DNA of 64,000 nucleotides from Bacteroidota bacterium (GTDB lineage: Bacteria; Bacteroidota; Bacteroidia; Bacteroidales; FEN-979): contig JBDROF010000018.1 in assembly GCA_043810345.1 (NCBI GenBank), positions 97,651 through 161,650 on the forward strand, given 5' to 3'. Position 1 is the first letter of the stretch; every line of letters begins with the position of its first letter. The notes below the pieces were generated by a model. That model did not search any database. It was given only the letters and a program-made list of their open reading frames with translations, and was not told where the DNA came from. Both the position numbers and the translations under genes were made by a program. This document shows positions 28,328 through 61,630 of the stretch, in pieces.

Positions 28328-28353
28328 CAAGTTTTCGGATGGTCAGTTAGTCT

Positions 28354-28674: not shown

Positions 28675-28706
28675 CACGTTTGGAATAACCGGGAAATCAA
28701 CAGACT

Positions 28707-29435
28707 ATGAGGCATGTATTAGTGACAGGTGGTTCCAGAGGAATTGGAAGGGCTTGCTGCCTGCGGCTTGCTGATGCAGGGCATTACATCATCATCAACT
28801 ACCTCTTCAACAAGGATGAAGCGGAAAAAACGCTGGAGATGGTTCGTGAAAAAGGGAGTGATGGGGAGTTGCTGAAGTTCGATGTATCCAGCCAGCAGGA
28901 GGTAGAAAAAGCCCTGAATGGATGGATGGAGAAACATGAAGGAGCTTATATATCCATTCTTGTGAACAATGCCGGCATCAGGAAAGATGCCCTGGTTATG
29001 TGGATGAAAGACGACGAATGGCAGGATGTGATCAACACCAACCTGAACGGCTTTCTCTATGTGACCCGAGCCCTGATAAAAGAGATGCTGATCAATAAGT
29101 TCGGCCGGATCATCAATGTGGTTTCGTTATCCGGATTGAAGGGGTTGCCCGGACAAGTCAACTATTCGGCTGCCAAAGCGGGTGTGATCGGAGCTACCAA
29201 GGCGATGGCGCAGGAGGTTGCCAAAAAGAATGTAACGGTCAATGCGGTAGCTCCGGGATTTATCCGCACCGATATGACCAAAGATATGGATGAATCCCAA
29301 CTGAAAGGGATGATTCCGATGGGACGTTTCGGCACCACTGATGAGGTGGCAGGGATCGTTGGTTTTCTTGCTTCTGAAGAGGCCTCTTACATCACAGGAG
29401 CTGTGATAAACGTTAACGGAGGACTATATACCTAA
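28707..29435 (+). CDS. 3-oxoacyl-ACP reductase (SDR, FabG-like ketoreductase)
   Basis: 242 aa. Motifs: VLVTGGSRGIGRA, NNAG, YSAAKAG, PGFIRTDM. Confidence 0.92.
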   Translation: MRHVLVTGGSRGIGRACCLRLADAGHYIIINYLFNKDEAEKTLEMVREKGSDGELLKFDVSSQQEVEKALNGWMEKHEGAYISILVNNAGIRKDALVMWMKDDEWQDVINTNLNGFLYVTRALIKEMLINKFGRIINVVSLSGLKGLPGQVNYSAAKAGVIGATKAMAQEVAKKNVTVNAVAPGFIRTDMTKDMDESQLKGMIPMGRFGTTDEVAGIVGFLASEEASYITGAVINVNGGLYT

Positions 29436-29510: not shown

Positions 29511-30734
29511 ATGAATAGAGTCGTCATTACCGGCATGGGAATCTACTCTGTCATCGGGAAGAATCTCGACGAGGTAAAGGATTCATTGTACCAGGGAAAA
29601 TCAGGCATTGTGTTCGATCCGGTCCGAAAAGAGATGGGATTCCGGTCCGCGTTGACAGGGATGGTGGAACGTCCACAACTCAAAGGGATCCTCGACCGCC
29701 GGATGCGGGTGGGGATGGCTGTGCAGGGCGAATATGCTTACATGGCTACCCTGGAAGCGCTTAAAGCTTCCGGGGTTGAACAGGACTTTCTGGATCGCCA
29801 TGAGGTTGGCATTATATATGGCAACGACAGTTCTGCGGTACCGGTGGTAGAATCGGTCGACATTCTCCGGGAGAAAAAAGATACCATGATGATCGGTTCG
29901 GGCTATATTTTCCAGTCCATGAACTCAACGGTATCGATGAATCTTTCGGTTATCTTCCGGTTGCGCGGTATCAACTTTACGGTTGCAGGGGCTTGTGCAA
30001 GCGGTTCACATGCCATTGGAATGGGGTTTCTGATGATCAGGCAAGGCCTCCAGGATATTATTATCTGTGGAGGCGCCCAGGAGATCAATCCTGAATCTAC
30101 TGCCAGCTTCGATGCCCTGAATGCCTTTTCGATCCGTGAATCGGAACCTACCAAAGCATCCCGTCCATTTGACCGCGACCGTGACGGCCTGGTGCCGAGC
30201 GGAGGTGCTGCTACTGTAATTTTGGAAAGCTACGACTCAGCAGTAAAACGCGGAGCTACCATTTTGGGTGAAATGATGGGCTATGGCTTCTCCTCCAATG
30301 GGGAACACATCTCTTTACCCAACGTGGAGGGGCCACGCCGGGCGATGCAGATGGCCCTGAAAGATTCGGGTATGCCTGCCGGGGAGATAGACTACATCAA
30401 TGCCCATGCAACATCGACCCAGGCCGGCGACAGCAACGAAGCACAAGCTATTGATGATGTTTTCGGGAAAACCAAACCCATGGTGAGCAGCACCAAATCA
30501 ATGACCGGTCACGAAATGTGGATGGGGGGAGCCAGCGAGGTAGTTTACTCGACGCTGATGATGCAGAACTCCTTTGTTGCTCCAAATATCAACTTTGACA
30601 ATCCCGATGAGGTCACCGGACGACTCAATCTCGTCCGGACAACATTACCTGCCGAAATCAATGCATTTCTCTCCAATTCATTCGGATTCGGAGGCACCAA
30701 TTCTGCCATAATAATCCGCAAGTTTTCCCGCTAG
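29511..30734 (+). CDS. Beta-ketoacyl-ACP synthase (KAS I/II fold), catalytic Cys-His-His present
   Basis: 407 aa. Motifs: AGACASGSHAIG, INAHATSTQAGD, TKSMTGHEM, SNSFGFGGTNSAII. Confidence 0.9.
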   Translation: MNRVVITGMGIYSVIGKNLDEVKDSLYQGKSGIVFDPVRKEMGFRSALTGMVERPQLKGILDRRMRVGMAVQGEYAYMATLEALKASGVEQDFLDRHEVGIIYGNDSSAVPVVESVDILREKKDTMMIGSGYIFQSMNSTVSMNLSVIFRLRGINFTVAGACASGSHAIGMGFLMIRQGLQDIIICGGAQEINPESTASFDALNAFSIRESEPTKASRPFDRDRDGLVPSGGAATVILESYDSAVKRGATILGEMMGYGFSSNGEHISLPNVEGPRRAMQMALKDSGMPAGEIDYINAHATSTQAGDSNEAQAIDDVFGKTKPMVSSTKSMTGHEMWMGGASEVVYSTLMMQNSFVAPNINFDNPDEVTGRLNLVRTTLPAEINAFLSNSFGFGGTNSAIIIRKFSR

Positions 30735-30751: not shown

Positions 30752-30759
30752 TATTTTTG
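30752..30759 (+). promoter_or_regulatory. Candidate internal -7 box (TAnnTTTG) upstream of ACP-1
   Basis: tatttttg lies 9 nt upstream of the ATG at 30769. Confidence 0.35.
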
Positions 30760-30768
30760 CATCCATCA

Positions 30769-31029
30769 ATGGACATCCTGATGCAGAACGAGGAGATTAT
30801 CACTAAGATCAATCAACTCTTGATTGAAGAGATTGAGATTGATGAAGAGCAAATCCGGCATGATGCTGACCTGAAAAAGGACCTGGGCATTGACAGTCTT
30901 GACTTTGTAGATCTTTTTGTCATCATAGAGAACAATTTCGGCTTTAAAATGAAAGCCGAGGAGATGACTGATGTAAAGACCCTCCAGGACTTTTATTCTT
31001 ACGTTATCAAACGCGTTCATTCAAACTAA
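30769..31029 (+). CDS. Acyl carrier protein (ACP-1)
   Basis: About 86 aa. Phosphopantetheine site context DLGIDSLDFVDL. The ATG at 30769 or 30781 is preferred over the TTG at 30757. Confidence 0.88.
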   Translation: MDILMQNEEIITKINQLLIEEIEIDEEQIRHDADLKKDLGIDSLDFVDLFVIIENNFGFKMKAEEMTDVKTLQDFYSYVIKRVHSN

Positions 31030-31037: not shown

Positions 31038-31940
31038 ATGTCGTCATGGCAAGGAAAAACCAGAGGAGGGGTCCTGGGGTATAAAATCTTTATCTGGACC
31101 TTAAAATACCTTGGCATCCCATTTGCTTATCTCCTCCTCCGTTTTGTTGTGACCTGGTTTGTTTTCAATTCACGGGAAGCCTTCAGGGCTGTTTACGCCT
31201 ACTTCAGGAATATCCAGCACTACTCCATAGTGAAATCGGTGATCAGTATTTTCCACAACTATTATATTTTCGGACAAATACTGATTGACAAACTGGCCAT
31301 GCTGACGGGTTTCCAACATCGCTTCACGTTTGATTTCGAAGGAGAAGAGCATCTGCGACAGATGCAGGATGGAGGATTGCTGATCAGTGCCCATGTGGGA
31401 AACTGGGAGATTGCCGGAAACCTGCTGAACCGTCTCAACAAGCGGATACACATCCTTATGTTTGATGCCGAACACCAACGGATTAAAGGGTACCTTGAAG
31501 ATACCATGAAAAAGCGCAATGTCCACTTCATCATCATCCGTGAGGGCTACAATCATCTGAAAGAGATTGAACAGGCATTCGCAGGAGGGGATATCATCGC
31601 CATGCATGGCGACAGGTTCATTGAAGGGAATAAAACGGTAACGCTTGATTTCATGGGAAAACAGGCTCGTTTCCCGGTCGGGCCGGTTAACCTGGCAGCC
31701 CGGTTTCAGGTTCCTGTTTCTTACGTGTTTGCCGTCAAAGAAACGCGAACCCATTACCACTTCTTTGCCACGTCTCTGTACCGGTTTGAATTTACACGCA
31801 ACCTGAAGAAGAGAGAGCAGATTCTAAAGGAGGCCGTCGCCATTTATGTTCAAAAATTCGAAGAGATCCTGCGCAGATATCCGTTGCAATGGTTTAACTA
31901 CTATGATTTCTGGAAACCCGAACCTGATCTCATCACATAA
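31038..31940 (+). CDS. Lysophospholipid/lipid A-type acyltransferase (LpxL/HtrB-like LPLAT)
   Basis: 300 aa. N-terminal membrane helix, SAHVGNWEIAG (HX4E/D-type motif). Its length and position match the LPLAT found in aryl-polyene/flexirubin clusters. Confidence 0.75.
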   Translation: MSSWQGKTRGGVLGYKIFIWTLKYLGIPFAYLLLRFVVTWFVFNSREAFRAVYAYFRNIQHYSIVKSVISIFHNYYIFGQILIDKLAMLTGFQHRFTFDFEGEEHLRQMQDGGLLISAHVGNWEIAGNLLNRLNKRIHILMFDAEHQRIKGYLEDTMKKRNVHFIIIREGYNHLKEIEQAFAGGDIIAMHGDRFIEGNKTVTLDFMGKQARFPVGPVNLAARFQVPVSYVFAVKETRTHYHFFATSLYRFEFTRNLKKREQILKEAVAIYVQKFEEILRRYPLQWFNYYDFWKPEPDLIT

Positions 31941-31950: not shown

Positions 31951-33312
31951 ATGACCACCAAGAGGTTACTTCTTGTTTCAGCCAACCGTTTCGCGGTCCC
32001 CTATCCGGTCTATCCGTTAGGTATCTCTTACCTGCTCTCATACCTGCAGGACCGCCTGGAGGGTTTCGAGATCCTGGTATTCGACCTGAACCTCCATGGT
32101 GAAGAGGAATTTACCGACTTTCTGAGATACCATAATCCTGATTTCACTGGCGTTTCGCTTCGGAACGTAGATGATGTCAGTTCCTTTTCGCGGGAGTTTT
32201 TCCTGACAGGATACAAAGAGATCATCGACCTGATCCGGAAAACCCTTCCGGAAACAATGCTGATCATCGGGGGTTCTGCCTTCTCTATTTTCCCTGAGGA
32301 GCTGTTTGCCTATTTTCAGCCAGATTTTGGCATTTACGGAGAGGGCGAAGAGAGCCTTTATAAGCTGTTGACCAGCATCCGTGATAGAGTCCCTGTCTAT
32401 GCAATCGAAGGCCTTGTATACCAAAACGGTAACCAGATTGTAGTGAATCCAAGGAACCATTACCTCCGTTCACTCGACCTCTTCTTTTCCGGTAATCTGA
32501 TCCAGTTCTATTGGGAAAAAAGTGGTATGATGAACCTCCAGACCAAGAGAGGTTGCCCCTATGAGTGCATCTACTGTACCTACCCTCTGATTGAGGGCAG
32601 GAAGGTGAGGACACTGGACCCGGATAAGATCGTGGAGAGCCTGAAAGATCTCTATTTCAACAACCAGATCAACTACATCTTTTTTACCGATTCGGTCTTC
32701 AACATCGACCGGAAATTTAACCTTACGCTTGCCCGCAAGATCCTGAAGTCGGGTATCAAGATCCAGTGGGGAGCCTATTTCTCTCCCCATAACATGGCTC
32801 TGGAGGAACTCAAATTGTTTGCAGAATCTGGACTCACTCACATCGAATTTGGAACAGAATCACTTTCAGACAGTACACTGAAACAATACCGGAAACATTT
32901 TACTGTAAACGAGATCGTTGAGGTCTCAGATATGTGTAATGAAGCTGGAATCTATTTCGCCCATTTCCTGATACTTGGTGGTTATGGCGAAACAGAGAAC
33001 AGCATCAACGAGGGATTTGAGAACTCGAAACGGATTACAAACTCTGTCTTTTTTCCCTATGTTGGAATGCGGATCTACCCAGGTACCAGGTTGTATGAAT
33101 TGGCGGTGTCGGACGGAACCATTGATCCGGAAGACAAACTGATTGAGCCAGCCTATTACCTCGCTGATCATATTGACTACGGGAGCCTGAAGGAGCGTGC
33201 TGAACAAACAGGCAGAAGGTGGGTATTCACGGACGAGGATGTAGTGACCTTCATGAACAGATTGAGAGCACGGAACAGAAAAGGATCATTATGGCACCAT
33301 TTGAAAAAATAA
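31951..33312 (+). CDS. B12-binding-domain radical SAM enzyme (#1)
   Basis: 453 aa from ATG 31951. N-terminal Rossmann-like B12-type region (RLLLVSAN..PYPVYPLGISYL..GVSLRNVDDV..IIGGSAFSIFPEE..GEGEE). Radical SAM motif QTKRGCPYECIYCTYP. It is clearly paralogous to 58699-60141. Confidence 0.88.
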   Translation: MTTKRLLLVSANRFAVPYPVYPLGISYLLSYLQDRLEGFEILVFDLNLHGEEEFTDFLRYHNPDFTGVSLRNVDDVSSFSREFFLTGYKEIIDLIRKTLPETMLIIGGSAFSIFPEELFAYFQPDFGIYGEGEESLYKLLTSIRDRVPVYAIEGLVYQNGNQIVVNPRNHYLRSLDLFFSGNLIQFYWEKSGMMNLQTKRGCPYECIYCTYPLIEGRKVRTLDPDKIVESLKDLYFNNQINYIFFTDSVFNIDRKFNLTLARKILKSGIKIQWGAYFSPHNMALEELKLFAESGLTHIEFGTESLSDSTLKQYRKHFTVNEIVEVSDMCNEAGIYFAHFLILGGYGETENSINEGFENSKRITNSVFFPYVGMRIYPGTRLYELAVSDGTIDPEDKLIEPAYYLADHIDYGSLKERAEQTGRRWVFTDEDVVTFMNRLRARNRKGSLWHHLKK

Positions 33313-35187: not shown

Positions 35188-35940
35188 ATGAGTGAAGAGT
35201 CCATCATCGGGATTCGGGATCTGACCAAGTATTACAAAGGGGCTGACGAACCGGCAATCAATCATATTTCACTCGATATTTTCAAAGATGAGATCTTTGG
35301 CTTACTGGGTCCAAACGGAGCTGGGAAAACAACCACCATCTCTATCCTTTGCGGTCTCTTTCCTCCCACTGAAGGAAGGGTTACCATCGACGGGCTTGAT
35401 ATCCGTTCCAACCATGAGAAGATCAAGCACATCATCGGAATCGTGCCACAGGATGTAGCTCTCTATCCTACACTGACCGGCCAGGAGAACCTTCAGTTCT
35501 TTGGCAATATGTACGGGCTGAGAGGGAACGCGCTGAAAGAACGCATCGGTGAGTACCTGGTCCGGTTTGGCCTGGAGAAATTCGCACGGAAACTGGTTTC
35601 CACATATTCCGGAGGAATGAAACGCCGGGTCAACCTGATTGCCGGGTTGTTGCACAAGCCCAGGATTCTCTTCCTGGATGAACCCACTGTTGGGATCGAT
35701 GTGCAGTCGCGCAATGTGATCCTTGAGTTCCTGCACGAACTGCGGAGAACCGGTACTACGATCATCTATACCTCGCACTATATGGAAGAGGCGGAGAAAC
35801 TTTGCAACCGCGTTGCAATCATAGACCAGGGAAAGATCATTGCCATAGGAAACCCTAAAGAGTTGGTTGCCCAGAATCCGGAATTCAAAAACCTGGAAAC
35901 TCTGTTTCTGGGATTGACAGGGAAAGATCTAAGGGACTAA
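35188..35940 (+). CDS. ABC transporter ATP-binding protein
   Basis: 250 aa. Walker A GPNGAGKTT, signature YSGGMKRR, Walker B ILFLDEPTVGID. Confidence 0.93.
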   Translation: MSEESIIGIRDLTKYYKGADEPAINHISLDIFKDEIFGLLGPNGAGKTTTISILCGLFPPTEGRVTIDGLDIRSNHEKIKHIIGIVPQDVALYPTLTGQENLQFFGNMYGLRGNALKERIGEYLVRFGLEKFARKLVSTYSGGMKRRVNLIAGLLHKPRILFLDEPTVGIDVQSRNVILEFLHELRRTGTTIIYTSHYMEEAEKLCNRVAIIDQGKIIAIGNPKELVAQNPEFKNLETLFLGLTGKDLRD

Positions 35941-35967
35941 GCATTTGAAGGAAAACAATTTAATTAA

Positions 35968-36115
35968 CAATAAATGCCAAATCACAATTAACAAATTTCA
36001 AATAAATCCCAAATTCTAAATCCCAATGATCTAAAACATATGAGAACTGATGTTTGAAATTTTGAACATTGGAGTTTGGTTGTTATTTGTTATTTGGTGC
36101 TTGATATTTGTTAAT
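35968..36115. repeat. AT-rich imperfect palindrome (about 45-nt arms) separating the ABC ATPase and permease genes
   Basis: The left arm aattaacaaatttcaaataaatcccaaattctaaatcccaatg compares with the reverse complement of the right arm, attaacaaatatcaagcaccaaataacaaataacaaccaaactccaatg. The core ..cccaatg/cattgga.tttgg is shared with 60157-60286. Confidence 0.7.
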
Positions 36116-36129
36116 CAAATATTCCCGGT

Positions 36130-37431
36130 TTGTTTAAATTTTTCGCCGCTTATCGAAAAGAATGGTTGATCCTGATCCGGGACCCGGCCGGACTGGTACT
36201 CCTGTTCCTGATGCCTATGGTCATGGTGGTGATCCTCTCCATGGTCCAGGAATTCGGCTGGAGCACCATTTCTAAAGAGCCCCAGGTGCCGGTATTGTTT
36301 GTAAATACCGACCTGGACTCTGTAGGGAACAAGTTTCAACAGGGATTAACAGAAGCTAAAATATTCACTCTGATCTCTCAACTGGATTCTGTACCCGTAA
36401 CCCAGGAAGTTGCCCGCCAGAAAGTCCTTGATGGGGAGTATCAGATTGCTGTGATCATCCCCGAACGCACTTCTGAACGTATCAGGGCTAAAATCAGACT
36501 GCTGGTTAATAAAACGATGATGAGCCTGATGATGCCCGACCAGAATCTCCTGGCTGGAGTGACCAATACAGACTCGGTGGAGGTGATCATCTATTTTGAT
36601 CCCGCCGTAAGAAATTCGTTCCGGAATGCGTTTCTAAGTTCCACCCGGGAATTCAATTCAAAGATTGAATCCCGGATGATCTTTGAGACCTTCCAGGAGG
36701 AACTGCGGAAACTCTTTCCTGGTTTTAATATGCCGGTGATCGATTATGAATCGTCTGTCTACTTCAAGGAAATCTTTCCGTCAGGCGTTGAAGAGGAGAT
36801 CCTTCCGTCAACCACACAGCATAATGTCCCCTCCTGGGCCATCTTTGCCATGTTTTTCATCGTGGTGCCTCTCACCAGCAGCATCATCAAAGAACGGGAA
36901 GAGGGGAGTCTGATCCGGCTCATGACCATTCCCGTTACATATATGACCATATTCATGGCTAAAGTCGGTGTGTACCTGATCGTCTGCTTTATTCAGTTCA
37001 TGCTGATGGTGCTTGCCGGGATATACGTGCTTCCGTTGTTCAACATGCCCCCTCTGGAGGTGGGCACCAATTACCTGGCTATTGCCATTATGACAATCGT
37101 ATCGAGCCTTGCTGCATTAGGATATGGGATTCTCCTTGGAACCCTTTCCAAAACCCATCAGCAGGCTGCTGCATTCGGGTCTGTCTCCATTGTAGTACTG
37201 GCAGCCATGGGCGGACTATGGGTACCGGTCTACCTGATGGGTTCCTTGATGAGGCATCTGGCCGCCTTCTCTCCGCTGAACTGGGCTCATGCGGGGTTTC
37301 TTGACATCTTCCTCAGGGGTAGCTCCCTGATGGATGTACTACCAGAGATCATCAAACTTCTTATCTTTTTTACTGTTACCATCGCCATTGCAGCTATCTA
37401 CCGGACACTTAAACCCCCAATCAGCACGTGA
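36130..37431 (+). CDS. ABC-2 type transporter permease
   Basis: 433 aa. One N-terminal TM, a large extracytoplasmic loop, then 5 C-terminal TMs (classic ABC-2 layout). TTG start at 36130 as in the track. Confidence 0.85.
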   Translation: MFKFFAAYRKEWLILIRDPAGLVLLFLMPMVMVVILSMVQEFGWSTISKEPQVPVLFVNTDLDSVGNKFQQGLTEAKIFTLISQLDSVPVTQEVARQKVLDGEYQIAVIIPERTSERIRAKIRLLVNKTMMSLMMPDQNLLAGVTNTDSVEVIIYFDPAVRNSFRNAFLSSTREFNSKIESRMIFETFQEELRKLFPGFNMPVIDYESSVYFKEIFPSGVEEEILPSTTQHNVPSWAIFAMFFIVVPLTSSIIKEREEGSLIRLMTIPVTYMTIFMAKVGVYLIVCFIQFMLMVLAGIYVLPLFNMPPLEVGTNYLAIAIMTIVSSLAALGYGILLGTLSKTHQQAAAFGSVSIVVLAAMGGLWVPVYLMGSLMRHLAAFSPLNWAHAGFLDIFLRGSSLMDVLPEIIKLLIFFTVTIAIAAIYRTLKPPIST

Positions 37432-37850
37432 ACAAAGATCTTGTAGAACGAACCGAGGTAAAAATCAGGTTTGGGGAAGTGGACTCTATGAAGATCGTCT
37501 GGCATGGAAATTACCTTAAGTATTTTGAAGATGCCCGGGAAGCGTTTGGCGAGCGGTATGGCCTGGGGTATCTGGATGTTTCGAAACACCGGGTCATGAT
37601 CCCAATCGTCAAGGTGCAGTGCGATTTTTTAAAACCGCTTGAATATGGGGGCAGCGCCATTGTTGAGACCAGGTTTGTGAATTCGGAAGCAGCTAAGATC
37701 ATTTTTGAATACAAGCTATTCAGGAAATCTGATATGGAACTGGCTGCCACTGGCAGTTCAGTGCAGGTTTTCCTTACTCCCGATGGGGAACTGTTACTCA
37801 CAACCCCGGAGTTCTTTATCGGGTGGAAAAAACATTGGGGTCTTATCTGA
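37428..37850 (+). CDS. Acyl-CoA/acyl-ACP thioesterase, 4HBT (YbgC-like) hotdog family
   Basis: 140 aa. VKIRFGEVDSMKIVWHGNYLKYFEDAREAF. The GTG start overlaps the permease stop (GTGA). Confidence 0.85.
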   Translation: MNKDLVERTEVKIRFGEVDSMKIVWHGNYLKYFEDAREAFGERYGLGYLDVSKHRVMIPIVKVQCDFLKPLEYGGSAIVETRFVNSEAAKIIFEYKLFRKSDMELAATGSSVQVFLTPDGELLLTTPEFFIGWKKHWGLI

Positions 37851-37851
37851 C

Positions 37852-39033
37852 ATGCAGGTTATGCAACCAGTGTATATCGTCAGCGACAACATCATCACTT
37901 CCCTTGGAGCCACCACTACCCAGAATATGGAGGCGTTGAAGGCCGGACACATCGGGATCAGTATGCAATCGGATCCACTCCTTTTTCCGTCACCGGTTCC
38001 GCTCTCCCTGGTTAACACCGGGATGCTGGAGGAGGAGTTCCAGGCGATCCTGGAACACTATAAAAAGAAGATCGATCCCATGGACTTTACCCGTCTGGAG
38101 AAACTTTTCATCATGTCAATTCATGAAGCCATCTGTAAGCTTTCATACAACTTCAAGAGTCGGAAGACACTCTTCGTCCTATCCACGACAAAAGGGAATA
38201 TTGACCTGTTGGAGGCGAGGCATCAGGGAGGCTTCCATCATCACCGGATCTTTTTATGGGAGATGGCCCGGATCGTGGGTGATTTCTTCGAGTTTTTCCA
38301 TCCCCCATTGATCGTCTCCAATGCCTGTATCTCCGGCATTATGGCGCTGCTGACCGCCTTCCGGTATCTGCGGACAGGCGCTTACGACCATGCAGTCGTG
38401 AGCGGCGGAGATATCCTCACAGAGTTTGTGATCTCAGGATTTCAATCCTTTCAATCACTCAGTCCTACCCCCTGTCGTCCTTACGATACCGGTCGTGACG
38501 GACTCTCCCTGGGTGAGGGAGCCGGTACCATAGTGTTGACCACCGGGATGGAAAACAAACCTTCAAACCAGGTGAAGGTGACCGGAGCAGCCACTTCCAA
38601 TGATGCAAACCACATTTCCGGGCCTTCCCGTACCGGGGAGGAGCTTAGTTTTGCTATCTGCAATGCCATGCAGGAGGCAGATCTGTCCTCCAGTGAAATC
38701 GGGTTTATCAATGCCCACGGAACTGCTACCCCATTCAATGACGAGATGGAGTCGAAAGCCATCGTTCTGGCCGGTTTGACGGAGGTGCCAGTGAACAGTT
38801 TCAAAGGATTCTGGGGCCATACCCTGGGCGCAGCCGGACTGATAGAGTCGGTAGCCGCTATCCATGCATTAAAGGGACAACAACTGATCAGGTCGGCAGG
38901 ATTTGAATCCCTGGGAGTACCTGAACCGATCCACGTCATTGCCAACAACGAAGAGAAACAAATGAAAAGCTGCCTGAAGACCGCTTCCGGATTCGGAGGA
39001 TGTAATGCAGCCATCATTTTTGAAAAAGATTGA
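37852..39033 (+). CDS. Beta-ketoacyl synthase (Cys-His-His), short-N-terminus type seen in aryl-polyene/flexirubin clusters
   Basis: 393 aa from ATG 37852 (1 nt after the thioesterase stop). Motifs: VSNACISGIMAL, INAHGTATPFNDEME, FWGHTLGAAGLIES, ASGFGGCNAAIIF. Confidence 0.88.
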   Translation: MQVMQPVYIVSDNIITSLGATTTQNMEALKAGHIGISMQSDPLLFPSPVPLSLVNTGMLEEEFQAILEHYKKKIDPMDFTRLEKLFIMSIHEAICKLSYNFKSRKTLFVLSTTKGNIDLLEARHQGGFHHHRIFLWEMARIVGDFFEFFHPPLIVSNACISGIMALLTAFRYLRTGAYDHAVVSGGDILTEFVISGFQSFQSLSPTPCRPYDTGRDGLSLGEGAGTIVLTTGMENKPSNQVKVTGAATSNDANHISGPSRTGEELSFAICNAMQEADLSSSEIGFINAHGTATPFNDEMESKAIVLAGLTEVPVNSFKGFWGHTLGAAGLIESVAAIHALKGQQLIRSAGFESLGVPEPIHVIANNEEKQMKSCLKTASGFGGCNAAIIFEKD

Positions 39034-39035
39034 AT

Positions 39036-39683
39036 ATGGATCAGGTCATTTCATCATATTCACAGATAAGACCGTTCCAGATCAAGGTCAATGGTCATCT
39101 CGAATTTGATGACAAAAATTTTATTACTTTTGCGGAGTTCATAAAGCCGTTCTTTAAGAGACTCGACTTGCGATACCCGAAATTTTACAAAATGGACTCC
39201 CTGAGCAAGCTTGGGTTTATCTCTGCAGAATTGGTTCTCAGGCAGGTAAACCTCGATCTTTATGATAAGAAACGTGTGGGTATCGTATTGGCGAATGGAA
39301 GCTCCAGTCTGGATACAGACCTGATCCACCAACAAAGTATCAACGACCGTTCGCAATACTTTCCAAGCCCCTCGGTGTTTGTCTACACTCTTCCCAACAT
39401 CATGATCGGGGAGATTTGTATCCGGCACCAGGTAAAAGGGGAAAATACGTTTCTCATCTCAGAAAAATTCGACCACAGGCTTTTGTTCAACTATGTGAAC
39501 GAACTTTTTCAGCACCACCGGGTGGAAGCTTGCCTCGCCGGATGGGTGGAGCTTCTGAAGGAGCAGTTTGAGGCCCTTCTGATGTTCGTTGAACCCGCAG
39601 GAAAAGCAGGTCCGGAGGAAAAAGCAGGGATGATGATCCCTTTCTCCGAAGTGGCAATGGATGAATTATATCAAACAATGTGA
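39036..39683 (+). CDS. KS-N-terminal-like protein without a recognisable active-site Cys (probable non-catalytic KS partner)
   Basis: 215 aa. KFYKMDSLSKLGFISAELVL, GIVLANGSSSLDTD, PSPSVFVYTLPNIMIGEICIRH. It starts 3 nt after the KS stop. Confidence 0.65.
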   Translation: MDQVISSYSQIRPFQIKVNGHLEFDDKNFITFAEFIKPFFKRLDLRYPKFYKMDSLSKLGFISAELVLRQVNLDLYDKKRVGIVLANGSSSLDTDLIHQQSINDRSQYFPSPSVFVYTLPNIMIGEICIRHQVKGENTFLISEKFDHRLLFNYVNELFQHHRVEACLAGWVELLKEQFEALLMFVEPAGKAGPEEKAGMMIPFSEVAMDELYQTM

Positions 39684-39693
39684 CAAGGCAATT

Positions 39694-39951
39694 ATGGAAG
39701 ATTTAATTGAAAAATTGAAGAAGGAAGTGATAGAACAACTGAACCTTGAAGATATATCGCCGGAGGATATTGAAGTAGACTCACCTTTGTTTGGAGAAGG
39801 GCTCGGACTTGACTCGATTGATGCACTTGAACTCATCGTTCTTCTTGAGAAAAATTACGGATTGAAAATTGAAGATCCCAAAGACGGGAAAAAGATATTC
39901 CACTCCATCAGAACGATGGCCGAATACATCACAGAGCCACAAAAAGTCTGA
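39694..39951 (+). CDS. Acyl carrier protein (ACP-2)
   Basis: 85 aa. GEGLGLDSIDALELIVLLE. Confidence 0.9.
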   Translation: MEDLIEKLKKEVIEQLNLEDISPEDIEVDSPLFGEGLGLDSIDALELIVLLEKNYGLKIEDPKDGKKIFHSIRTMAEYITEPQKV

Positions 39952-39954
39952 TGA

Positions 39955-41154
39955 ATGGCCAGGCGGGTTGTGGTAACCGGAACCGGCATCATTTCCAGCC
40001 TTGGCAGGAACCTTCCGGAGACCATCGATTCGATCCTCCACTCCAGATCAGGGATTGGAAAACTTCAACATCTCAATACTCCTCACAAAACAGAGTTCCC
40101 CTTTGCAGAGGTTCCATGGAGCAATGATCAACTGATTGACCTGGCTCAACTAACTGATCTCGTGGGATATTCACGGAACACCCTGCTGGGGGTGATTGCG
40201 GCTCGGGAAGCCTTCAAGCATGCCCGGCTTCCCCATCTTCCACCCCTGAGAACAGGGTTAATCTCTGCTACTACAGTGGGTGGCATGGATAGATGCGAGA
40301 TCTATTACAACGACTTTTTGACCAACGATTCGAAAAACATCTACATCGATGTGTACGATTGTGCCGACAGCACAGAGAAAATTGCTGATACCCTGCAGAT
40401 TCGGGATTATGTAACGACTATTAGCACAGCCTGTTCCTCGGCTGCCAACGCGATTTTACTCGGGGCCAGGATGATCCGCAGTGGTCAGCTTGATCGCGTG
40501 GTTGCCGGAGGCACTGAAGCACTCACCAGCTTTCATGTGAATGGTTTCAATGCGCTTAAGATCCTGGACAAGGTCCCTTGCCGTCCTTTCGATGCCAACC
40601 GGAACGGAATTACCCTGGGTGAAGGGGCTGCCTACCTGGTTCTGGAATCAGAGGAGGCAGCCAGGGAGGGTGACCGGGAGATCTTAGCGGAGTTGACCGG
40701 TTACGGGAACGCATGCGAAGCCTTCCACCAGACTGCCTCATCTCCGGATGGGAAGGGAGCTTTCCTGGCGATGGAGAGGGCTTTGCAGATCAGTGGAACC
40801 GATCAGTCGGAGATCGACTATGTCAACGCACACGGGACAGGGACTGACAACAACGACATTGCTGAAGGAGTTGCCATCGAACGGTTGTTCGGGAAAAGGA
40901 TCCCGAAAGTAAGCTCCACGAAGCCTTTCACAGGTCATATGACCAGCGCAGCCGGATCGGCTGAAGCCATCCTCTCCATCCTCTGTCTCACCCACCGGCT
41001 GATCCTGCCTAACCTGAACTTTAACACCCCCATGCCGGAATTGAACTTTACACCGGAACCAACATTGATACGGGATATCGATGTGAAAACGGTGATGTCC
41101 AATTCCTTTGGATTTGGCGGAAATAATACCACCCTTATTTTCAGGAAAATATGA
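39955..41154 (+). CDS. Beta-ketoacyl-ACP synthase II-type KS (KS-alpha of pair 1)
   Basis: 399 aa. Motifs: ISTACSSAANAILLGARMIRSG, VNAHGTGTDNND, TGHMTSAAGSAEA, SNSFGFGGNNTTLIF. Confidence 0.92.
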   Translation: MARRVVVTGTGIISSLGRNLPETIDSILHSRSGIGKLQHLNTPHKTEFPFAEVPWSNDQLIDLAQLTDLVGYSRNTLLGVIAAREAFKHARLPHLPPLRTGLISATTVGGMDRCEIYYNDFLTNDSKNIYIDVYDCADSTEKIADTLQIRDYVTTISTACSSAANAILLGARMIRSGQLDRVVAGGTEALTSFHVNGFNALKILDKVPCRPFDANRNGITLGEGAAYLVLESEEAAREGDREILAELTGYGNACEAFHQTASSPDGKGAFLAMERALQISGTDQSEIDYVNAHGTGTDNNDIAEGVAIERLFGKRIPKVSSTKPFTGHMTSAAGSAEAILSILCLTHRLILPNLNFNTPMPELNFTPEPTLIRDIDVKTVMSNSFGFGGNNTTLIFRKI

Positions 41155-42248
41155 CCGCATACATCCATGGTATTGGCCTCATCTCTCCCCAGCAGACCAC
41201 GGATCCAGCTCTGTTTCTGCCTGAGGTGATGGAGTATACAGCTGATTTCCTGAAAGCGATTGACCCAAATTATAAAACATACATCCACCCGCTGGCTGCC
41301 CGCCGGATGAGCCGGCTCATCAAGATGGGGATCACATCTGCTCTAATCGCCCTGCAAGATGCACGAATACTCCCCTCCCTTCTTGGGGAGGGTCCGGGGG
41401 AGGGGTCGCAGGTGGGGTCCATCATAACCGGCACTGGCCTAGGATCTGTTGAAGACACCGAAAAAATCCTGACCGGCATGACCGCCGGTGAACAATTGAT
41501 GAACCCGACGCCCTTTATCCAGTCCACCTATAACACCATCAGTTCACAGATCGCTATCTCCATCAAATGTCACAATTACAATTCTACTTACGTACACCGC
41601 TCATTCTCTTTTGAAAGTGCACTTCAGGATGCCCTGTTACAGTTTGCTGAAGGAGCCGTCTTGACAGCCCTTGTTGGGGGCATCGATGAAATGACCGCTA
41701 ACCACCTTCAGATCACCCGGCGGGCCGGGCACTGGAAGATGAACCCGGTGAATAACCTGCAGCTACTCTCGACCAAAACACCCGGTGCACTTGCCGGAGA
41801 AGGCGCTGCCTTTTTCCTGCTGGGGAACCAATCCACAGCCTCTACTTATGCCACTCTCAGGGATGTGAAAACCCTTTACAGGCCGGAAAAGCAGACATAT
41901 CTGGAAGAGGTAATTCACGATTATCTTTCCGCTAACGATTTGGATATAAATCAGTTGGATATCGTAATTCTGGGTTACAATGGGGATATTCAATTTGATG
42001 CCGTGTATGACCAGCTAGGATCAGGAATCTTCCGGGAAACTCAACAGGTGTGGTATAAACACCTCTGTGGAGAGTATTATACTTCTACTGGTTTCGCCCT
42101 CTGGTTGGGAGCCAATATCCTGAAACATCAGCTGGTTCCGGCCATCGTCAAATTCAACAACGTGAATTCCGGCCCTTTAAAGCATATCCTGATCTATAAC
42201 CAATACCGAAATATTAACCATTCCATGATTCTCCTTAGCAGAAGATAA
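41151..42248 (+). CDS. Chain-length-factor-like KS homologue lacking the catalytic Cys (partner of pair 1)
   Basis: 365 aa. ATGA overlap with the KS gene. IHGIGLISPQ.., IITGTGLG, FIQSTYNTISSQIAISIK sits where the KS has ISTACSS. Confidence 0.8.
   Translation: MTAYIHGIGLISPQQTTDPALFLPEVMEYTADFLKAIDPNYKTYIHPLAARRMSRLIKMGITSALIALQDARILPSLLGEGPGEGSQVGSIITGTGLGSVEDTEKILTGMTAGEQLMNPTPFIQSTYNTISSQIAISIKCHNYNSTYVHRSFSFESALQDALLQFAEGAVLTALVGGIDEMTANHLQITRRAGHWKMNPVNNLQLLSTKTPGALAGEGAAFFLLGNQSTASTYATLRDVKTLYRPEKQTYLEEVIHDYLSANDLDINQLDIVILGYNGDIQFDAVYDQLGSGIFRETQQVWYKHLCGEYYTSTGFALWLGANILKHQLVPAIVKFNNVNSGPLKHILIYNQYRNINHSMILLSRR
41371..41420. repeat. GC-rich hairpin repeat lying in frame inside CLF-like gene 1
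   Basis: tcccctcccttcttggggagggtccgggggaggggtcgcaggtggggtcc encodes PSLLGEGPGEGSQVGS, immediately before the conserved IITGTGLG. Confidence 0.85.
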
Positions 42249-42366
42249 CCAGCAACCTTCACCTATTCACGGACTATCCAATACCCTTAACACGATCCCA
42301 CTGAGTCCTGCGCTCTGGGCCCTGTGCTCTTTCTCTTTGTCCTCCGTGGTTGAACAAATTTTCTGT

Positions 42367-42374
42367 TAACTTTG
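42367..42374 (+). promoter_or_regulatory. Candidate internal -7 box (TAnnTTTG) upstream of KS pair 2
   Basis: taactttg lies 24 nt upstream of the ATG at 42399, in the only sizeable (150-nt) gap of this gene run. Confidence 0.4.
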
Positions 42375-42398
42375 CCTGCACGAATTTGTCTGAACTGA

Positions 42399-43613
42399 AT
42401 GTCGAAACGCATCTTTATTACCGGGATCGGGATCATCTCTGCCATTGGGAACAGCATACACGAAGTCCTCTATTCACTGGAAACCGGCAAAACCGGCATC
42501 GGGGAGATCACTCTCTTTCCTACCCTTCACCAGGGGTCAATTCCCATGGCCGAAGTGAAACTCTCCAACGCCCAGCTCCTCAACCTGGCAGGCCAACACG
42601 AAAATGGTAATTTTACGAGGACTGCCCTGCTGGGGATGGTTGCTGCGAAAGAGGCGTTAGAATCAGCGGGAATCAGAGATGTTACTGCCCTTAGAACCGG
42701 TCTTCTCTCTGCCACTACGGTGGGTGGAATGGACCGTAGCGAAGGCTTTTACAAGGAATTCCTTGAAGATCCTGCAAAAGGGCGGTTGAAAGATGTGATC
42801 AATCACGATTGTGGCGACAGCACTGAACGTATTGCTTCTTACCTGGGGATCAATCACCTGATCTCAACCATCAGTACAGCTTGTTCCTCTTCCGCTAACT
42901 CCATCATGTTTGGTGCCGACCTGATCCGCAGCGGAAAACTTGACCGGGTGATCGCCGGAGGAACCGACTCAGTTACAAAGTTCACCCTCAACGGATTCAA
43001 TACACTGATGATCCTGGATAAAAGAGGATGCCATCCGTTTGATGAACACAGGGCGGGTTTAACACTTGGTGAAGGGGCGGCTTTTGTCGTGCTTGAACCC
43101 GAAGAAATTGTAAAAAGAGAGGGGAAACAGCCCCTGGCTGAACTTACCGGGTATGGCAATGCCAACGATGCATACCATCAGACGGCTAGCTCACCCGATG
43201 GAAAAGGTGCCTTTCTGGCCATGACCATAGCCCTGGAAATGAGTAAGCTGAGCCCATCTGAACTGGATTATATCAACGCTCATGGAACCGGAACTGAGAA
43301 TAATGATTTGTCTGAAGGGATTGCCCTGGAGCGGATCTTTGACCCGGTTCCCCCTTTCAGCTCTACGAAAACCTATACCGGCCATACGCTTGGGGCTGCA
43401 GGAGCAGTGGAAGCTGTGATTTCGATCCTTTCGATCTGCCACGGGATGATCTTTCCGAACCTCAATTGGTCAACGCCCATGAAAGAGTTAACGATCCAAC
43501 CTGTAACTCAACTAATAAAGAAGAAGAATATCCGGCATGTTCTCTCCAACTCCTTTGGTTTCGGGGGAAATAACTCCACCCTGATCCTCTCTCAACCTCC
43601 TCAATCTGTATAA
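42399..43613 (+). CDS. Beta-ketoacyl-ACP synthase II-type KS (KS-alpha of pair 2; paralogue of 39955-41154)
   Basis: 404 aa. Motifs: ISTACSSSANSIMFGADLIRSG, INAHGTGTENND, TGHTLGAAGAVEA, SNSFGFGGNNSTLIL. Confidence 0.92.
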   Translation: MSKRIFITGIGIISAIGNSIHEVLYSLETGKTGIGEITLFPTLHQGSIPMAEVKLSNAQLLNLAGQHENGNFTRTALLGMVAAKEALESAGIRDVTALRTGLLSATTVGGMDRSEGFYKEFLEDPAKGRLKDVINHDCGDSTERIASYLGINHLISTISTACSSSANSIMFGADLIRSGKLDRVIAGGTDSVTKFTLNGFNTLMILDKRGCHPFDEHRAGLTLGEGAAFVVLEPEEIVKREGKQPLAELTGYGNANDAYHQTASSPDGKGAFLAMTIALEMSKLSPSELDYINAHGTGTENNDLSEGIALERIFDPVPPFSSTKTYTGHTLGAAGAVEAVISILSICHGMIFPNLNWSTPMKELTIQPVTQLIKKKNIRHVLSNSFGFGGNNSTLILSQPPQSV

Positions 43614-43616
43614 TCT

Positions 43617-46852: not shown

Positions 46853-46879
46853 TCTCCACGGATAGTCTTCGTTTTTACG

Positions 46880-46887
46880 TACCTTTG
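46880..46887 (+). promoter_or_regulatory. Candidate internal -7 box (TAnnTTTG) upstream of the FabZ-like gene
   Basis: tacctttg lies 27 nt upstream of the ATG at 46915. Confidence 0.4.
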
Positions 46888-46914
46888 TTCCCCTAACCGG
46901 TTGTATCTACTGAT

Positions 46915-61627: not shown

Positions 61628-61630
61628 CAA

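What the first reader, a model, noticed from the sequence alone, without database searches (positions are those of the whole stretch)
31951..33312. B12-rSAM #1 wedged between the LPLAT acyltransferase and a hotdog dehydratase, with a clear paralogue 26 kb away
Seen: the CxxxCxxC motif (RGCPYECIYCTYP) follows an N-terminal B12-binding-type Rossmann region. The gene sits 10 nt after the acyltransferase stop, and the downstream dehydratase-like gene overlaps its 3' end. Blocks R(L/V)LLV, PYP.xPLG, S(L/I)RN(V/I)DDV, GGS.FS.FP.E, GEGEE, QTKRGC...CIYCTYP.IEGR and GLRIYP.T are shared with the minus-strand gene 58699-60141. Established: class B radical SAM enzymes typically methylate unactivated carbons or perform ring-forming or rearranging chemistry (for example the hopanoid methylases HpnP/HpnR, and BchE). 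I also recall an NCBIfam/TIGRFAMs family named 'lipid biosynthesis B12-binding/radical SAM protein', derived from comparative work on anammox ladderane gene clusters. I cannot recall its accession, and I cannot test membership here. Inference: two paralogues suggest two related radical modifications on an ACP-bound or lipid-bound chain.
Basis: partly seen in the sequence, partly recalled or inferred. Interest (0 to 1): 0.78.

Follow-up and report, generated by a model that had tools for sequence, protein, structure and literature searches.

The report
B12 radical-SAM enzyme in flexirubin-like cluster
The gene is a real vitamin-B12-dependent radical SAM enzyme of the uncharacterised family first noted in anammox "ladderane" gene clusters, but here it sits inside a flexirubin-type pigment gene cluster of an anaerobic Bacteroidales bacterium and probably adds a methyl group to the pigment.

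Summary
Window 31951-33312 (+) encodes a 453-aa protein with an N-terminal B12-binding domain and a CxxxCxxC radical SAM core. It passes the curated cutoff of NCBIfam TIGR04072, "lipid biosynthesis B12-binding/radical SAM protein" (405.6 bits against 360).

The minus-strand paralogue at 58699-60141 is real but distant (29% identity) and falls below that cutoff (308 bits). The window holds two more B12-rSAM genes.

The setting is not ladderane synthesis. It is a roughly 35-kb flexirubin-type aryl-polyene cluster, colinear with Flavobacterium johnsoniae Fjoh_1075-1110. The order KR(FlxB)-KS-ACP-LPLAT(FlxE)-rSAM-DH(FlxF)-DarG-DarH is conserved in about 80 species, mostly uncultured Bacteroidales. 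LPLAT-rSAM and rSAM-hotdog fusion proteins also exist.

The AlphaFold model (pLDDT 88.8) is closest to TsrM. The Arg under TsrM's cobalamin is conserved (R71). TsrM's cluster-capping Glu is replaced by Val.

Best reading, unproven: a cobalamin-dependent C-methyltransferase that tailors the carrier-bound aryl-polyene intermediate. It is a new member of a known family whose function remains unknown.

The parts
28707..29435 (+). Ketoreductase, FlxB type; first gene of the operon in this window
   Evidence: NCBIfam NF053542 FlxB_rubin_SDR, 392.5 bits against cutoff 340; Pfam adh_short
29511..30734 (+). Ketosynthase (FlxC position, FabB/FabF-like)
   Evidence: Pfam ketoacyl-synt N and C domains; NCBIfam KAS I/II hits below cutoffs
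30757..31029 (+). Acyl carrier protein (FlxD position)
   Evidence: Pfam PP-binding
31038..31940 (+). LpxL-type LPLAT acyltransferase (FlxE position). Its stop lies 10 nt before the rSAM start. Fused to the rSAM in some genomes.
   Evidence: Pfam Lip_A_acyltrans; fusion proteins P0026, P0055, P0088, P0130 and ORFs in L013, L024, L025
31951..33312 (+). B12-binding radical SAM protein rSAM#1, 453 aa, a TIGR04072 member (the finding)
   Evidence: TIGR04072 405.6 bits against cutoff 360; AF2 pLDDT 88.8; top fold match TsrM 6WTE
31993..32367 (+). Cobalamin-binding Rossmann domain (aa 15-139). It has no DxHxxG motif. R71 (nt 32161-32163) aligns with TsrM Arg69.
   Evidence: Pfam PF02310; HMMER alignment to 6WTE; R conserved in 125 of 130 aligned sequences
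32554..32577 (+). CxxxCxxC [4Fe-4S] motif (C202, C206, C209)
   Evidence: Translation; aligned to TsrM C227/C231/C234; invariant in 130/130 aligned sequences
32545..33012 (+). Radical SAM core (aa 199-354). V249 (nt 32695-32697) occupies the position of TsrM Glu273.
   Evidence: Pfam PF04055
33291..33707 (+). Hotdog-fold dehydratase (FlxF/ApeP-like); overlaps the rSAM 3' end by 22 nt
   Evidence: Gene call with PF22817 label; NCBIfam FabZ E 5e-7; PDB FabZ hits; rSAM-hotdog fusions P0146/P0272
33749..35185 (+). DarG-family protein (33749-34147) and DarH BtrH-related acyltransferase (34166-35185)
   Evidence: NCBIfam NF053536, 110 bits against cutoff 70; NF053550, 406 bits against cutoff 300
35188..47705 (+). 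Rest of the flexirubin-type core: ABC exporter, thioesterases, KS/CLF pairs, ACP, polysaccharide deacetylase, LolA2, LolB2, FabA-like DH
   Evidence: colinear with Fjoh_1081-1096
50427..52004 (+). Third B12-rSAM (BchE/HpnJ-like, no family cutoff reached), next to a DarB-like KSIII, two ECH genes and a 3HCDH
58699..60141 (-). Paralogue of rSAM#1 (480 aa, 29% identity). R and CxxxCxxC are conserved. Below the TIGR04072 cutoff.
60287..61630 (-). Fourth B12-rSAM (best hit HpnR, 145 bits against cutoff 650)

Best explanation
rSAM#1 is a cobalamin-dependent (class B) radical SAM enzyme of the TIGR04072 family. It works as a tailoring enzyme in a flexirubin-type aryl-polyene pigment pathway of an anaerobic Bacteroidales bacterium.

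**Shown**
- The domain architecture, fold and family membership.
- Tight translational and physical coupling to the FlxE-type LPLAT acyltransferase upstream and the FlxF/ApeP-type dehydratase downstream.
- Placement in the 'initiation' operon TAL-KR-KS-ACP-LPLAT-rSAM-DH. The TAL gene is present in relatives but absent from this window.

**Inferred**
- The enzyme binds cobalamin base-off with Arg71 under the cobalt, as in TsrM.
- It is methylated by SAM to methylcobalamin and passes that methyl to a carbon of the ACP- or pantetheine-tethered intermediate.
- The most likely target is an sp2 carbon of the 4-hydroxyphenyl head group, ortho to the phenol. The ring methyl of flexirubin at that position is known to come from methionine.
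- TsrM's cluster-capping Glu is replaced by Val. The [4Fe-4S] cluster can therefore probably bind SAM normally, so a 5'-deoxyadenosyl-radical step is not excluded.
- The paralogue at 58699-60141 would carry out a second, related modification.
For: - **Family and fold.** TIGR04072 scores 405.6 bits against cutoff 360. The next best families are BzaD (182 bits) and TsrM (105 bits), both Csp2 methylases (PMC12931638). The AF2 model has pLDDT 88.8, and Foldseek puts TsrM first (E 1e-30, TMq 0.77-0.85). The profile search of PDB sequences also puts TsrM first (3e-44).
- **Active-site residues.** TsrM Arg69 aligns with R71, which is conserved in 125 of 130 aligned sequences (126 family representatives plus the window's four rSAMs). 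TsrM Glu273 aligns with V249, which is V/I/L in most of the family and never Glu. The roles of Arg69 and Glu273 are taken from PMC8992657.
- **Cluster identity.** FlxB, DarG-family, DarH, LolA2 and LolB2 models all score above their cutoffs. The gene order matches F. johnsoniae and C. pinensis.
- **Conserved neighbourhood.** Synteny and the 22-nt overlap hold across about 80 species-level loci. A TAL gene sits directly upstream of the KR in about 48 loci.
- **Fusions.** LPLAT-rSAM and rSAM-hotdog fusion proteins exist.
- **Chemical precedent.** The flexirubin ring methyl derives from methionine, with loss of one ring hydrogen (PMC3992019). Class B methylases that act on pantetheinylated substrates have solved structures (TokK, CysS).
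Against: - No member of TIGR04072 has a demonstrated activity. A 2026 review lists the 'ladderane' B12-rSAM under unknown transformations.
- Relatives carry a class I methyltransferase domain in the cluster's MMPL-acyltransferase protein. That domain could make the ring methyl instead.
- The window itself has no TAL or CoA ligase.
- The LPLAT-rSAM pair also occurs away from polyene genes (L069, L037, L074). This points to a substrate defined by the acyltransferase rather than by the aryl group.
- A B12-binding-like domain does not guarantee cobalamin use; AprD4 is among the structural neighbours.
- The product of these clusters is chemically unknown.
Confidence: 0.4

Rival explanations
1. Radical Csp3 methylation or alkylation of the lipid part. 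The enzyme would use 5'-dA radical H-abstraction plus methylcobalamin, as TokK, CysS and HpnR do. Its target would be an alkyl chain of the acyl or resorcinol-type moiety that the LPLAT esterifies, not the aryl ring.
For: - V249 replaces TsrM's blocking Glu, so canonical SAM cleavage is possible.
- LPLAT fusions exist, and stand-alone LPLAT-rSAM pairs occur outside polyene clusters.
- The gene sits next to DarG/DarH, and in three loci next to a DarB gene (NCBIfam-confirmed in L078) and/or a DarA candidate.
Against: - The closest characterised relatives are Csp2 methylases, not Csp3 ones. HpnR and PhpK models score only 83-101 bits.
- The TsrM-type Arg under the cobalt is conserved.
Confidence: 0.2
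2. Non-methylating radical chemistry on the polyene or acyl chain, such as C-C cyclisation, coupling or rearrangement. This is the role proposed for the family in anammox ladderane synthesis.
For: - The family name and its origin in ladderane-cluster comparisons.
- Class B enzymes such as BchE, OxsB and HpnJ do not methylate.
- The best PDB sequence hits of the neighbouring DH are the anammox amxFabZ proteins, though weakly (E 0.002).
Against: - Ladderanes are known only from anammox bacteria, while this family has thousands of members in non-anammox anaerobes.
- BchE and HpnJ models score low.
- The TsrM-like Arg suggests methylcobalamin chemistry.
Confidence: 0.15
3. Anaerobic substitute for DarA/DarB (dialkylresorcinol synthesis). 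The argument is that the gene occupies the slot between LPLAT and DH where darA-darB lie in F. johnsoniae.
For: - Positional equivalence: Fjoh_1104-1103-1102-1101 against LPLAT-rSAM-DH.
- Canonical DarB is absent from the window; the best DarB-like protein scores 109 bits against cutoff 450.
Against: - In L078 a bona fide DarB (615.8 bits against cutoff 550) and a DarA candidate lie between the rSAM and the DH. L028 also carries both near the rSAM. L033 shows only the DarA candidate before the locus ends. The rSAM therefore coexists with these genes.
- C. pinensis has flxE and flxF adjacent, with darAB elsewhere.
Confidence: 0.04
4. Housekeeping radical SAM enzyme (HemN, MiaB/RimO or YgiQ type) that lies next to lipid genes by chance.
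For: JGI labels homologues 'YgiQ (UPF0313 family)' through a generic COG.
Against: - MiaB/MtaB/RimO models score 20-24 bits against cutoffs of 251-357. YgiQ does not match rSAM#1 at all and scores only 18 bits on the paralogue.
- Gene order is conserved in about 80 species, with overlapping stop and start codons and gene fusions.
Confidence: 0.01

Closest known systems
NCBIfam TIGR04072 (rSAM_ladder_B12), 'lipid biosynthesis B12-binding/radical SAM protein'. The family grew out of comparative work on anammox and Desulfotalea fatty-acid-type clusters (Rattray et al. 2009, PMC2649909).
   Same: - Full-length match above the trusted cutoff (aa 5-451, 405.6 bits).
- B12-binding domain plus CxxxCxxC core.
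- Embedded among ACP, KS, DH and acyltransferase genes.
   Different: - The host is a non-anammox Bacteroidales.
- The cluster is flexirubin-type (FlxB, DarG/H, LolA2/B2), not the anammox cluster.
- No biochemical function is known for any member, so 'same function' cannot be asserted.
TsrM (tryptophan 2-C-methyltransferase; PDB 6WTE/6WTF)
   Same: - Best structural and sequence match among solved structures.
- Base-off, His-off type domain with the Arg (TsrM R69 = R71) under the cobalt.
- Same CxxxCxxC placement.
   Different: - About 21-23% identity.
- The TsrM family model scores 104.6 bits against cutoff 500.
- TsrM's Glu273, which caps the unique iron and blocks radical chemistry, is Val here.
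- The C-terminal region differs.
- The likely substrate is carrier-bound, not free tryptophan.
BzaD (anaerobic B12 lower-ligand pathway; predicted Csp2 methylase of 5-methoxybenzimidazole)
   Same: - Second-best NCBIfam model (182 bits, nearly full length).
- Its predicted reaction is aromatic C-methylation ortho to an oxygen substituent, analogous to flexirubin ring methylation.
   Different: - Far below the cutoff (450).
- No bza genes nearby.
- BzaD itself has not been characterised biochemically.
Flexirubin gene clusters of Flavobacterium johnsoniae (Fjoh_1075-1110) and Chitinophaga pinensis (flxA-flxY, dar genes)
   Same: - Colinear gene order.
- FlxB, DarG-family, DarH, LolA2 and LolB2 models all pass their cutoffs.
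- LPLAT (FlxE) and DH (FlxF) flank the finding.
   Different: - The tables for the aerobic clusters list no radical SAM gene.
- This cluster has four B12-rSAMs and an extra ECH / KSIII / 3HCDH / FabF / AT block.
- It has no canonical DarA/DarB, halogenase or (in this window) TAL.
Class B methylases acting on pantetheine- or carrier-tethered substrates (TokK, CysS)
   Same: - Same two-domain scaffold.
- They set a precedent for methylating carrier-bound intermediates.
   Different: - Weak sequence similarity (E 7e-6 to 5e-11 against the profile).
- A different residue lies under the cobalt (Trp in TokK).
- They carry out iterative Csp3 methylation.

Membership tests
NCBIfam TIGR04072 lipid biosynthesis B12-binding/radical SAM protein | Whole-protein HMM score at or above the curated cutoff (360 bits) | tested here: met
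   405.6 bits, E 2e-121, profile positions 1-441 of 443. The paralogue 58699-60141 scores 308 bits, which does not meet the cutoff.
NCBIfam TIGR04072 lipid biosynthesis B12-binding/radical SAM protein | Location in a fatty-acid- or polyketide-type biosynthesis cluster (ACP, KS, DH, acyltransferase) | tested here: met
NCBIfam TIGR04072 lipid biosynthesis B12-binding/radical SAM protein | A defined catalytic activity | not testable with these tools
   None is known for the family
Class B (cobalamin-dependent) radical SAM enzymes | N-terminal Rossmann-type cobalamin-binding domain | tested here: met
   Pfam PF02310, 45.3 bits against cutoff 32.1. The AF2 model superposes on cobalamin-bound TsrM, OxsB and TokK.
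Class B (cobalamin-dependent) radical SAM enzymes | CxxxCxxC [4Fe-4S] motif in a partial TIM barrel | tested here: met
   C202/C206/C209; Pfam PF04055
Class B (cobalamin-dependent) radical SAM enzymes | Actual cobalamin binding and use | not testable with these tools
   AprD4 shows that the domain can occur without cobalamin
TsrM-type non-radical Csp2 methylase (TIGR04428) | Family HMM cutoff (500 bits) | tested here: not met
   104.6 bits
TsrM-type non-radical Csp2 methylase (TIGR04428) | Arg in the lower axial space of cobalamin (TsrM Arg69) | tested here: met
   R71 aligns with it and is conserved in 125 of 130 aligned sequences
TsrM-type non-radical Csp2 methylase (TIGR04428) | Glu ligating the unique iron (TsrM Glu273) | tested here: not met
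   V249 occupies this position; the family has V/I/L there and never Glu
BzaD (TIGR04385) | Family HMM cutoff (450 bits) | tested here: not met
   182.4 bits
Hopanoid methylase HpnR / BchE / HpnJ | Family HMM cutoffs (650 / 481 / 578 bits) | tested here: not met
   82.6 / 81.4 / 96.2 bits. No HpnP model appeared among the hits.
Flexirubin-type pigment biosynthesis cluster | Cluster-specific proteins (FlxB, DarG family, DarH, LolA2, LolB2) above the curated cutoffs | tested here: met
   392.5 against 340; 110 against 70; 406 against 300; 219.6 against 125; 81 against 60
Flexirubin-type pigment biosynthesis cluster | Gene order colinear with the F. johnsoniae and C. pinensis clusters | tested here: met
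Flexirubin-type pigment biosynthesis cluster | Tyrosine ammonia-lyase starter gene | tested here: not met
   No TAL anywhere in the window. It is present directly upstream of the KR in about 48 related loci.
Flexirubin-type pigment biosynthesis cluster | Canonical DarA/DarB dialkylresorcinol genes | tested here: not met
   The best DarB-like protein scores 87.6-109 bits against cutoffs of 550 and 450. A true DarB was found only in L078 and L028, and a DarA candidate in L078, L033 and L028.
Flexirubin-type pigment biosynthesis cluster | A flexirubin-type pigment is actually produced | not testable with these tools
   Uncultured MAG lineage; no chemistry available
Anammox ladderane biosynthesis | Host is an anammox Planctomycetota that makes ladderanes | tested here: not met
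   The identical protein is in a Bacteroidota MAG, and all close homologues are Bacteroidota

The most novel reading that the evidence does not exclude
TIGR04072-type enzymes would be a general device of anaerobes for radical C-C chemistry on polyene or acyl chains built by APE-, flexirubin- or ladderane-type type II synthases. On this reading the Bacteroidales LPLAT-rSAM-DH unit does something other than simple methylation, for example radical cyclisation or cross-linking of the carrier-bound polyene. These abundant, non-anammox clusters would then be an accessible model for the unsolved ladderane radical SAM step.
Probability: 0.15. Interest if true: 0.85.

Novelty: new member of a known kind. 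Interest (0 to 1): 0.5.

Why it matters
No activity is known for the TIGR04072 family. It is the candidate enzyme for ladderane ring formation, an open problem. Anammox bacteria lack genetic tools, and heterologous expression has so far failed to yield the radical SAM enzyme (PMC10139942).

The same family turns out to be a fixed, translationally coupled and sometimes fused part of flexirubin-type aryl-polyene clusters in many anaerobic Bacteroidales. That supplies a defined pathway context with an ACP, an LPLAT, a dehydratase and a tyrosine-derived starter. It also supplies a concrete set of substrates to test.

The result also suggests that anaerobic Bacteroidales make modified flexirubin-like pigments using up to four B12-dependent radical SAM enzymes. 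The flexirubin papers read here mention no radical SAM gene.

Tried and rejected
- **DarA/DarB replacement.** The positional equivalence with Fjoh_1103-1102 was attractive. However, a true DarB and a DarA candidate lie beside the rSAM in L078 and L028, and the DarA candidate alone lies beside it in L033.
- **[quoted passage not shown]** This argument was undermined. Relatives carry a methyltransferase domain at the C-terminus of the MMPL-acyltransferase protein. Only the N-terminus of that gene is inside the window.
- **Housekeeping families (HemN, MiaB, RimO, YgiQ).** Scores are far below cutoffs.
- **Literature.** No paper in the library mentions TIGR04072 or the family name, and none links flexirubin to a radical SAM enzyme.
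- **TAL remnant.** None was found between the RRM gene and the KR.
- **Pfam on neighbours.** My scans gave no hit for the DH or for the DarA candidate.
- **Structure library.** A Foldseek search of afdb50 was unavailable, so no organism-labelled structural neighbours, such as anammox proteins, were obtained.
- **Taxonomy of distant relatives.** Cluster look-ups returned almost no names.
- **Phylogeny.** No tree with HpnP/HpnR, BchE or anammox sequences was built, because those sequences could not be fetched. NCBIfam scores were used as a proxy.
Full report
**1. Observation**

Window 31951-33312 (+) translates without stops to a 453-aa protein containing QTKRGCPYECIYCTYPLIEGR. Pfam places a B12-binding domain at aa 15-139 and a Radical_SAM domain at aa 199-354.

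The upstream acyltransferase ends with TAA at 31938-31940, and the rSAM ATG is at 31951, a 10-nt gap. The downstream gene starts at ATG 33291, inside the codons for the rSAM's C-terminal ...LWHHLKK, a 22-nt overlap. The longer ORF from 31846 is not the real start. Homologues are 452-453 aa and begin MxxKKLLLV, and the public gene call uses the same start.

BLASTP gives 29% identity over 417 aa, E 8e-58. It is a true but old paralogue. Two further B12-rSAM genes lie at 50427-52004 (+) and 60287-61630 (-). They are only 20-25% identical to rSAM#1.

**2. Family**

Against NCBIfam, rSAM#1 matches TIGR04072 'lipid biosynthesis B12-binding/radical SAM protein' end to end, with 405.6 bits against a curated cutoff of 360. 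The paralogue scores 308 bits, below the cutoff. The next best models for rSAM#1 are BzaD (182 bits against 450) and TsrM (105 against 500). HpnR, BchE and HpnJ score 81-96 bits, and MiaB/RimO-type models 20-24 bits. None approaches its cutoff.

NCBI already gives this name to many close homologues. The family arose from comparisons of anammox and Desulfotalea fatty-acid-type clusters (PMC2649909). No activity is known for it. A 2026 review lists the 'ladderane' B12-rSAM under unknown transformations (PMC12931638). The library has no paper mentioning the family.

**3. Organism and distribution**

The identical protein occurs in Bacteroidota MAG GCA_043824395.1. The word-indexed search found 2,993 homologues at E <= 1e-20, and every named protein among the best 120 is labelled Bacteroidota or simply 'bacterium'. 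The exhaustive search found 794 clusters (at 50% identity) with E <= 1e-30.

A scan of one genome per species confirmed 532 relatives. The best 80 are almost all uncultured Bacteroidales, Prolixibacteraceae, Rikenellaceae or Marinilabiliales from anoxic lakes, groundwater, bogs and sediments. The window also encodes a glycyl-radical enzyme and its activase, which fits an anaerobe.

**4. Context**

The surrounding ~35 kb is a flexirubin-type aryl-polyene cluster. These cluster-specific models pass their cutoffs:

| Gene (start) | Model | Score / cutoff |
|---|---|---|
| 28707 | FlxB reductase | 392.5 / 340 |
| 33749 | DarG family | 110 / 70 |
| 34166 | DarH acyltransferase | 406 / 300 |
| 45418 | LolA2 | 219.6 / 125 |
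| 46058 | LolB2 | 81 / 60 |

Together with the KS/CLF pairs, ACPs, thioesterases, ABC exporter, polysaccharide deacetylase, GT2 and the N-terminus of an MMPL exporter at the window's end, the order is colinear with Flavobacterium johnsoniae Fjoh_1075-1110 and C. pinensis flxA-F/dar (PMC3992019 tables).

In C. pinensis the order flxD (ACP) - flxE (LPLAT) - flxF (DH) is uninterrupted. In F. johnsoniae darA-darB lie between the LPLAT and the DH. Here rSAM#1 lies there. The tables for those aerobic clusters list no radical SAM gene.

**5. Conservation**

I called ORFs in the 80 loci and compared them with the window's proteins. The order KR-KS-ACP-LPLAT-rSAM-DH-(DarG-DarH)x1-2-ABC-TE-KS-...-ACP-KS/CLF recurs in nearly every locus with enough flank. 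LPLAT-to-rSAM gaps are mostly -11 to +11 nt, and the 22-nt rSAM/DH overlap is kept in most loci.

An aromatic amino-acid lyase (TAL, FlxA-like; Pfam 543 bits) sits directly upstream of the KR in about 48 loci and in a 5.27-Mb genome. It is missing from the whole window and from its relatives L002 and L003.

Several fusions occur:
- LPLAT-rSAM fusions appear in several independent assemblies (P0026, P0032, P0055, P0088, P0090 and others; ORFs in L013, L024, L025) and in a distant relative at 38% identity (P0130).
- rSAM-hotdog fusions also exist (P0146, P0272).
- The LPLAT-rSAM pair alone survives in otherwise unrelated neighbourhoods (L069, L037, L074).

The functional unit is therefore LPLAT-rSAM(-DH). 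Orthologues of the paralogue lie on the same contigs as orthologues of rSAM#1 in at least 12 genomes (matching contig lengths). In the 5.27-Mb genome both sit in one ~48-kb cluster with the same gene content as the window.

**6. Structure and active site**

The AlphaFold2 model built on 47 sequences has mean pLDDT 88.8 and pTM 0.88. Foldseek against the PDB ranks cobalamin-bound TsrM first (E 1e-30, TMq 0.77-0.85). MgmA, AprD4, TokK, OxsB and CysS follow. A profile search of PDB sequences gives the same leader (3e-44).

In that alignment:
- TsrM Arg69 aligns with R71.
- The three cluster cysteines align with C202, C206 and C209.
- TsrM Glu273 aligns with V249.

Across 126 diverse family representatives plus the window's four rSAMs, the Arg is present in 125 of 130 sequences. 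Position 249 is V/I/L in most and never Glu. The window's other two rSAMs have Leu or Ile at the Arg position.

According to PMC8992657, Arg69 blocks lower-axial ligation and weakens the Co-CH3 bond for nucleophilic attack, while Glu273 caps the unique iron and prevents 5'-dA radical formation. The family therefore has the TsrM-type cobalamin environment but not TsrM's block on radical chemistry. This is an inference from alignment, not a measurement.

**7. Mechanism proposed**

The two-domain scaffold, the TsrM-like Arg and the nearest families (TsrM, and BzaD, which is predicted to methylate an aromatic sp2 carbon) point to methylcobalamin-dependent C-methylation.

The operon is the initiation part of the aryl-polyene line: TAL, KR, the first KS, ACP, LPLAT and DH. 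Flexirubin's ring carries a methionine-derived methyl installed with loss of one ring hydrogen (PMC3992019). Class B methylases that act on pantetheinylated substrates are known (TokK, CysS).

I therefore favour C-methylation of the carrier-bound 4-hydroxyphenyl intermediate, with the paralogue performing a second related step. Confidence is 0.4 for 'C-methyltransferase tailoring this pigment' and lower for the ring as the exact site.

Several points count against this:
- The family is uncharacterised.
- Relatives carry a class I methyltransferase domain in the exporter protein.
- This window lacks a TAL gene.
- Stand-alone LPLAT-rSAM pairs suggest a substrate defined by the acyltransferase.

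Rivals are radical Csp3 methylation of the lipid moiety (0.2), non-methylating radical C-C chemistry as proposed for ladderanes (0.15), and a DarAB substitute (0.04). The last is contradicted because a true DarB (615.8 bits against 550) and a DarA candidate lie beside the rSAM in L078 and L028, and the DarA candidate also lies beside it in L033.

**8. Link to ladderane clusters**

The anammox 'cluster I' encodes an ACP, a FabZ variant, a KS/CLF-like FabF pair, a phytoene-dehydrogenase-like enzyme and a B12-rSAM. The Bacteroidales clusters contain the same kinds of parts, including an Amino_oxidase gene in relatives.

The best PDB sequence hits of the DH next to rSAM#1 are the anammox amxFabZ structures. 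They are only marginally ahead of an ordinary FabZ (E 0.002 against 0.006), so this is a lead and not evidence of orthology. I could not fetch anammox rSAM sequences for a direct comparison.

**9. Verdict**

The gene is a new member of a known but functionally uncharacterised family. NCBI's annotation pipeline already names close homologues this way, so membership itself is not new.

What this analysis adds:
- The flexirubin-type context.
- The very tight LPLAT-rSAM-DH unit, with natural fusions.
- The TsrM-like Arg combined with an uncapped iron site.
- The fact that these anaerobes carry up to four B12-rSAMs in the cluster.

Interest is moderate (0.5). The chemistry is unknown and bears on the ladderane question, but the most likely answer is an ordinary tailoring methylation.

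Noticed in passing
window 47712-53098: A block of ECH, ECH, a DarB-like KSIII (StlD/DarB model 109 bits against cutoff 450), a B12-rSAM (BchE/HpnJ-like) and a 3-hydroxyacyl-CoA dehydrogenase. A haem-binding protein, a FabF, an ACP (54827-55126) and an acyltransferase follow. The same block is present in a 5.27-Mb relative (L084) and upstream of the KR in L049. It may be an anoxic route to an alkylresorcinol-type moiety, with the rSAM standing in for the DarA aromatase.
   Followed up: partly
window 60287-61630 (-): A fourth B12-rSAM. Its best model is the hopanoid C-3 methylase HpnR (145 bits against cutoff 650). Its orthologue sits directly upstream of the FlxB KR in L052, L061 and L065.
   Followed up: partly
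window 28144-28706, compared with L026 5142-6692 and L032: The tyrosine ammonia-lyase gene that opens this operon in about 48 related loci is absent from the whole window and from L002 and L003. Only about 560 bp separate the RRM gene from the KR. The source of the aryl starter in this organism is unclear.
   Followed up: partly
P0219, P0255, P0269: Giant proteins of 2,096-2,331 aa that contain four to six tandem B12-rSAM units related to this family.
   Followed up: no
P0137 (807 aa): A SPASM-type radical SAM domain fused N-terminally to a TIGR04072-like B12-rSAM.
   Followed up: no
L069 9069-11344; L037 3386-5613; L074 1756-3953: The LPLAT-rSAM pair occurs without polyene genes. In L069 it lies next to a Crp-type regulator. 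In L037 it lies next to Nramp and an aminotransferase / SDR / acyltransferase / KS lipid-type set.
   Followed up: partly
window 33291-33707: My Pfam scans find no family for this dehydratase, although the precomputed table lists PF22817 ApeP-like for the identical product. Its best PDB sequence hits are the anammox amxFabZ structures 8AYD, 8AYC and 7QV0 (E about 0.002).
   Followed up: partly
window 56057-58651: A response regulator, a histidine kinase (both on the minus strand) and a DUF1573 protein sit inside the cluster. The 5.27-Mb relative has only a PNPOx-like gene at that position (L084 11460-11873).
   Followed up: no
L084 3108-6959 (-); window 63092-63994: Relatives encode a 1,283-aa MMPL exporter fused to a PlsC-type acyltransferase and a class I methyltransferase. 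The window ends inside the N-terminus of the orthologous gene.
   Followed up: partly
L002, L006, L010, L011, L013-L017, L019, L023, L025, L079, L082: The DarG-DarH gene pair is tandemly duplicated in many relatives but single in the window.
   Followed up: no
window 17339-21481: A glycyl-radical enzyme (PFL-like, 800 aa) with its radical SAM activase lies upstream of the cluster. It is unrelated to the cluster and indicates an anaerobic lifestyle.
   Followed up: no
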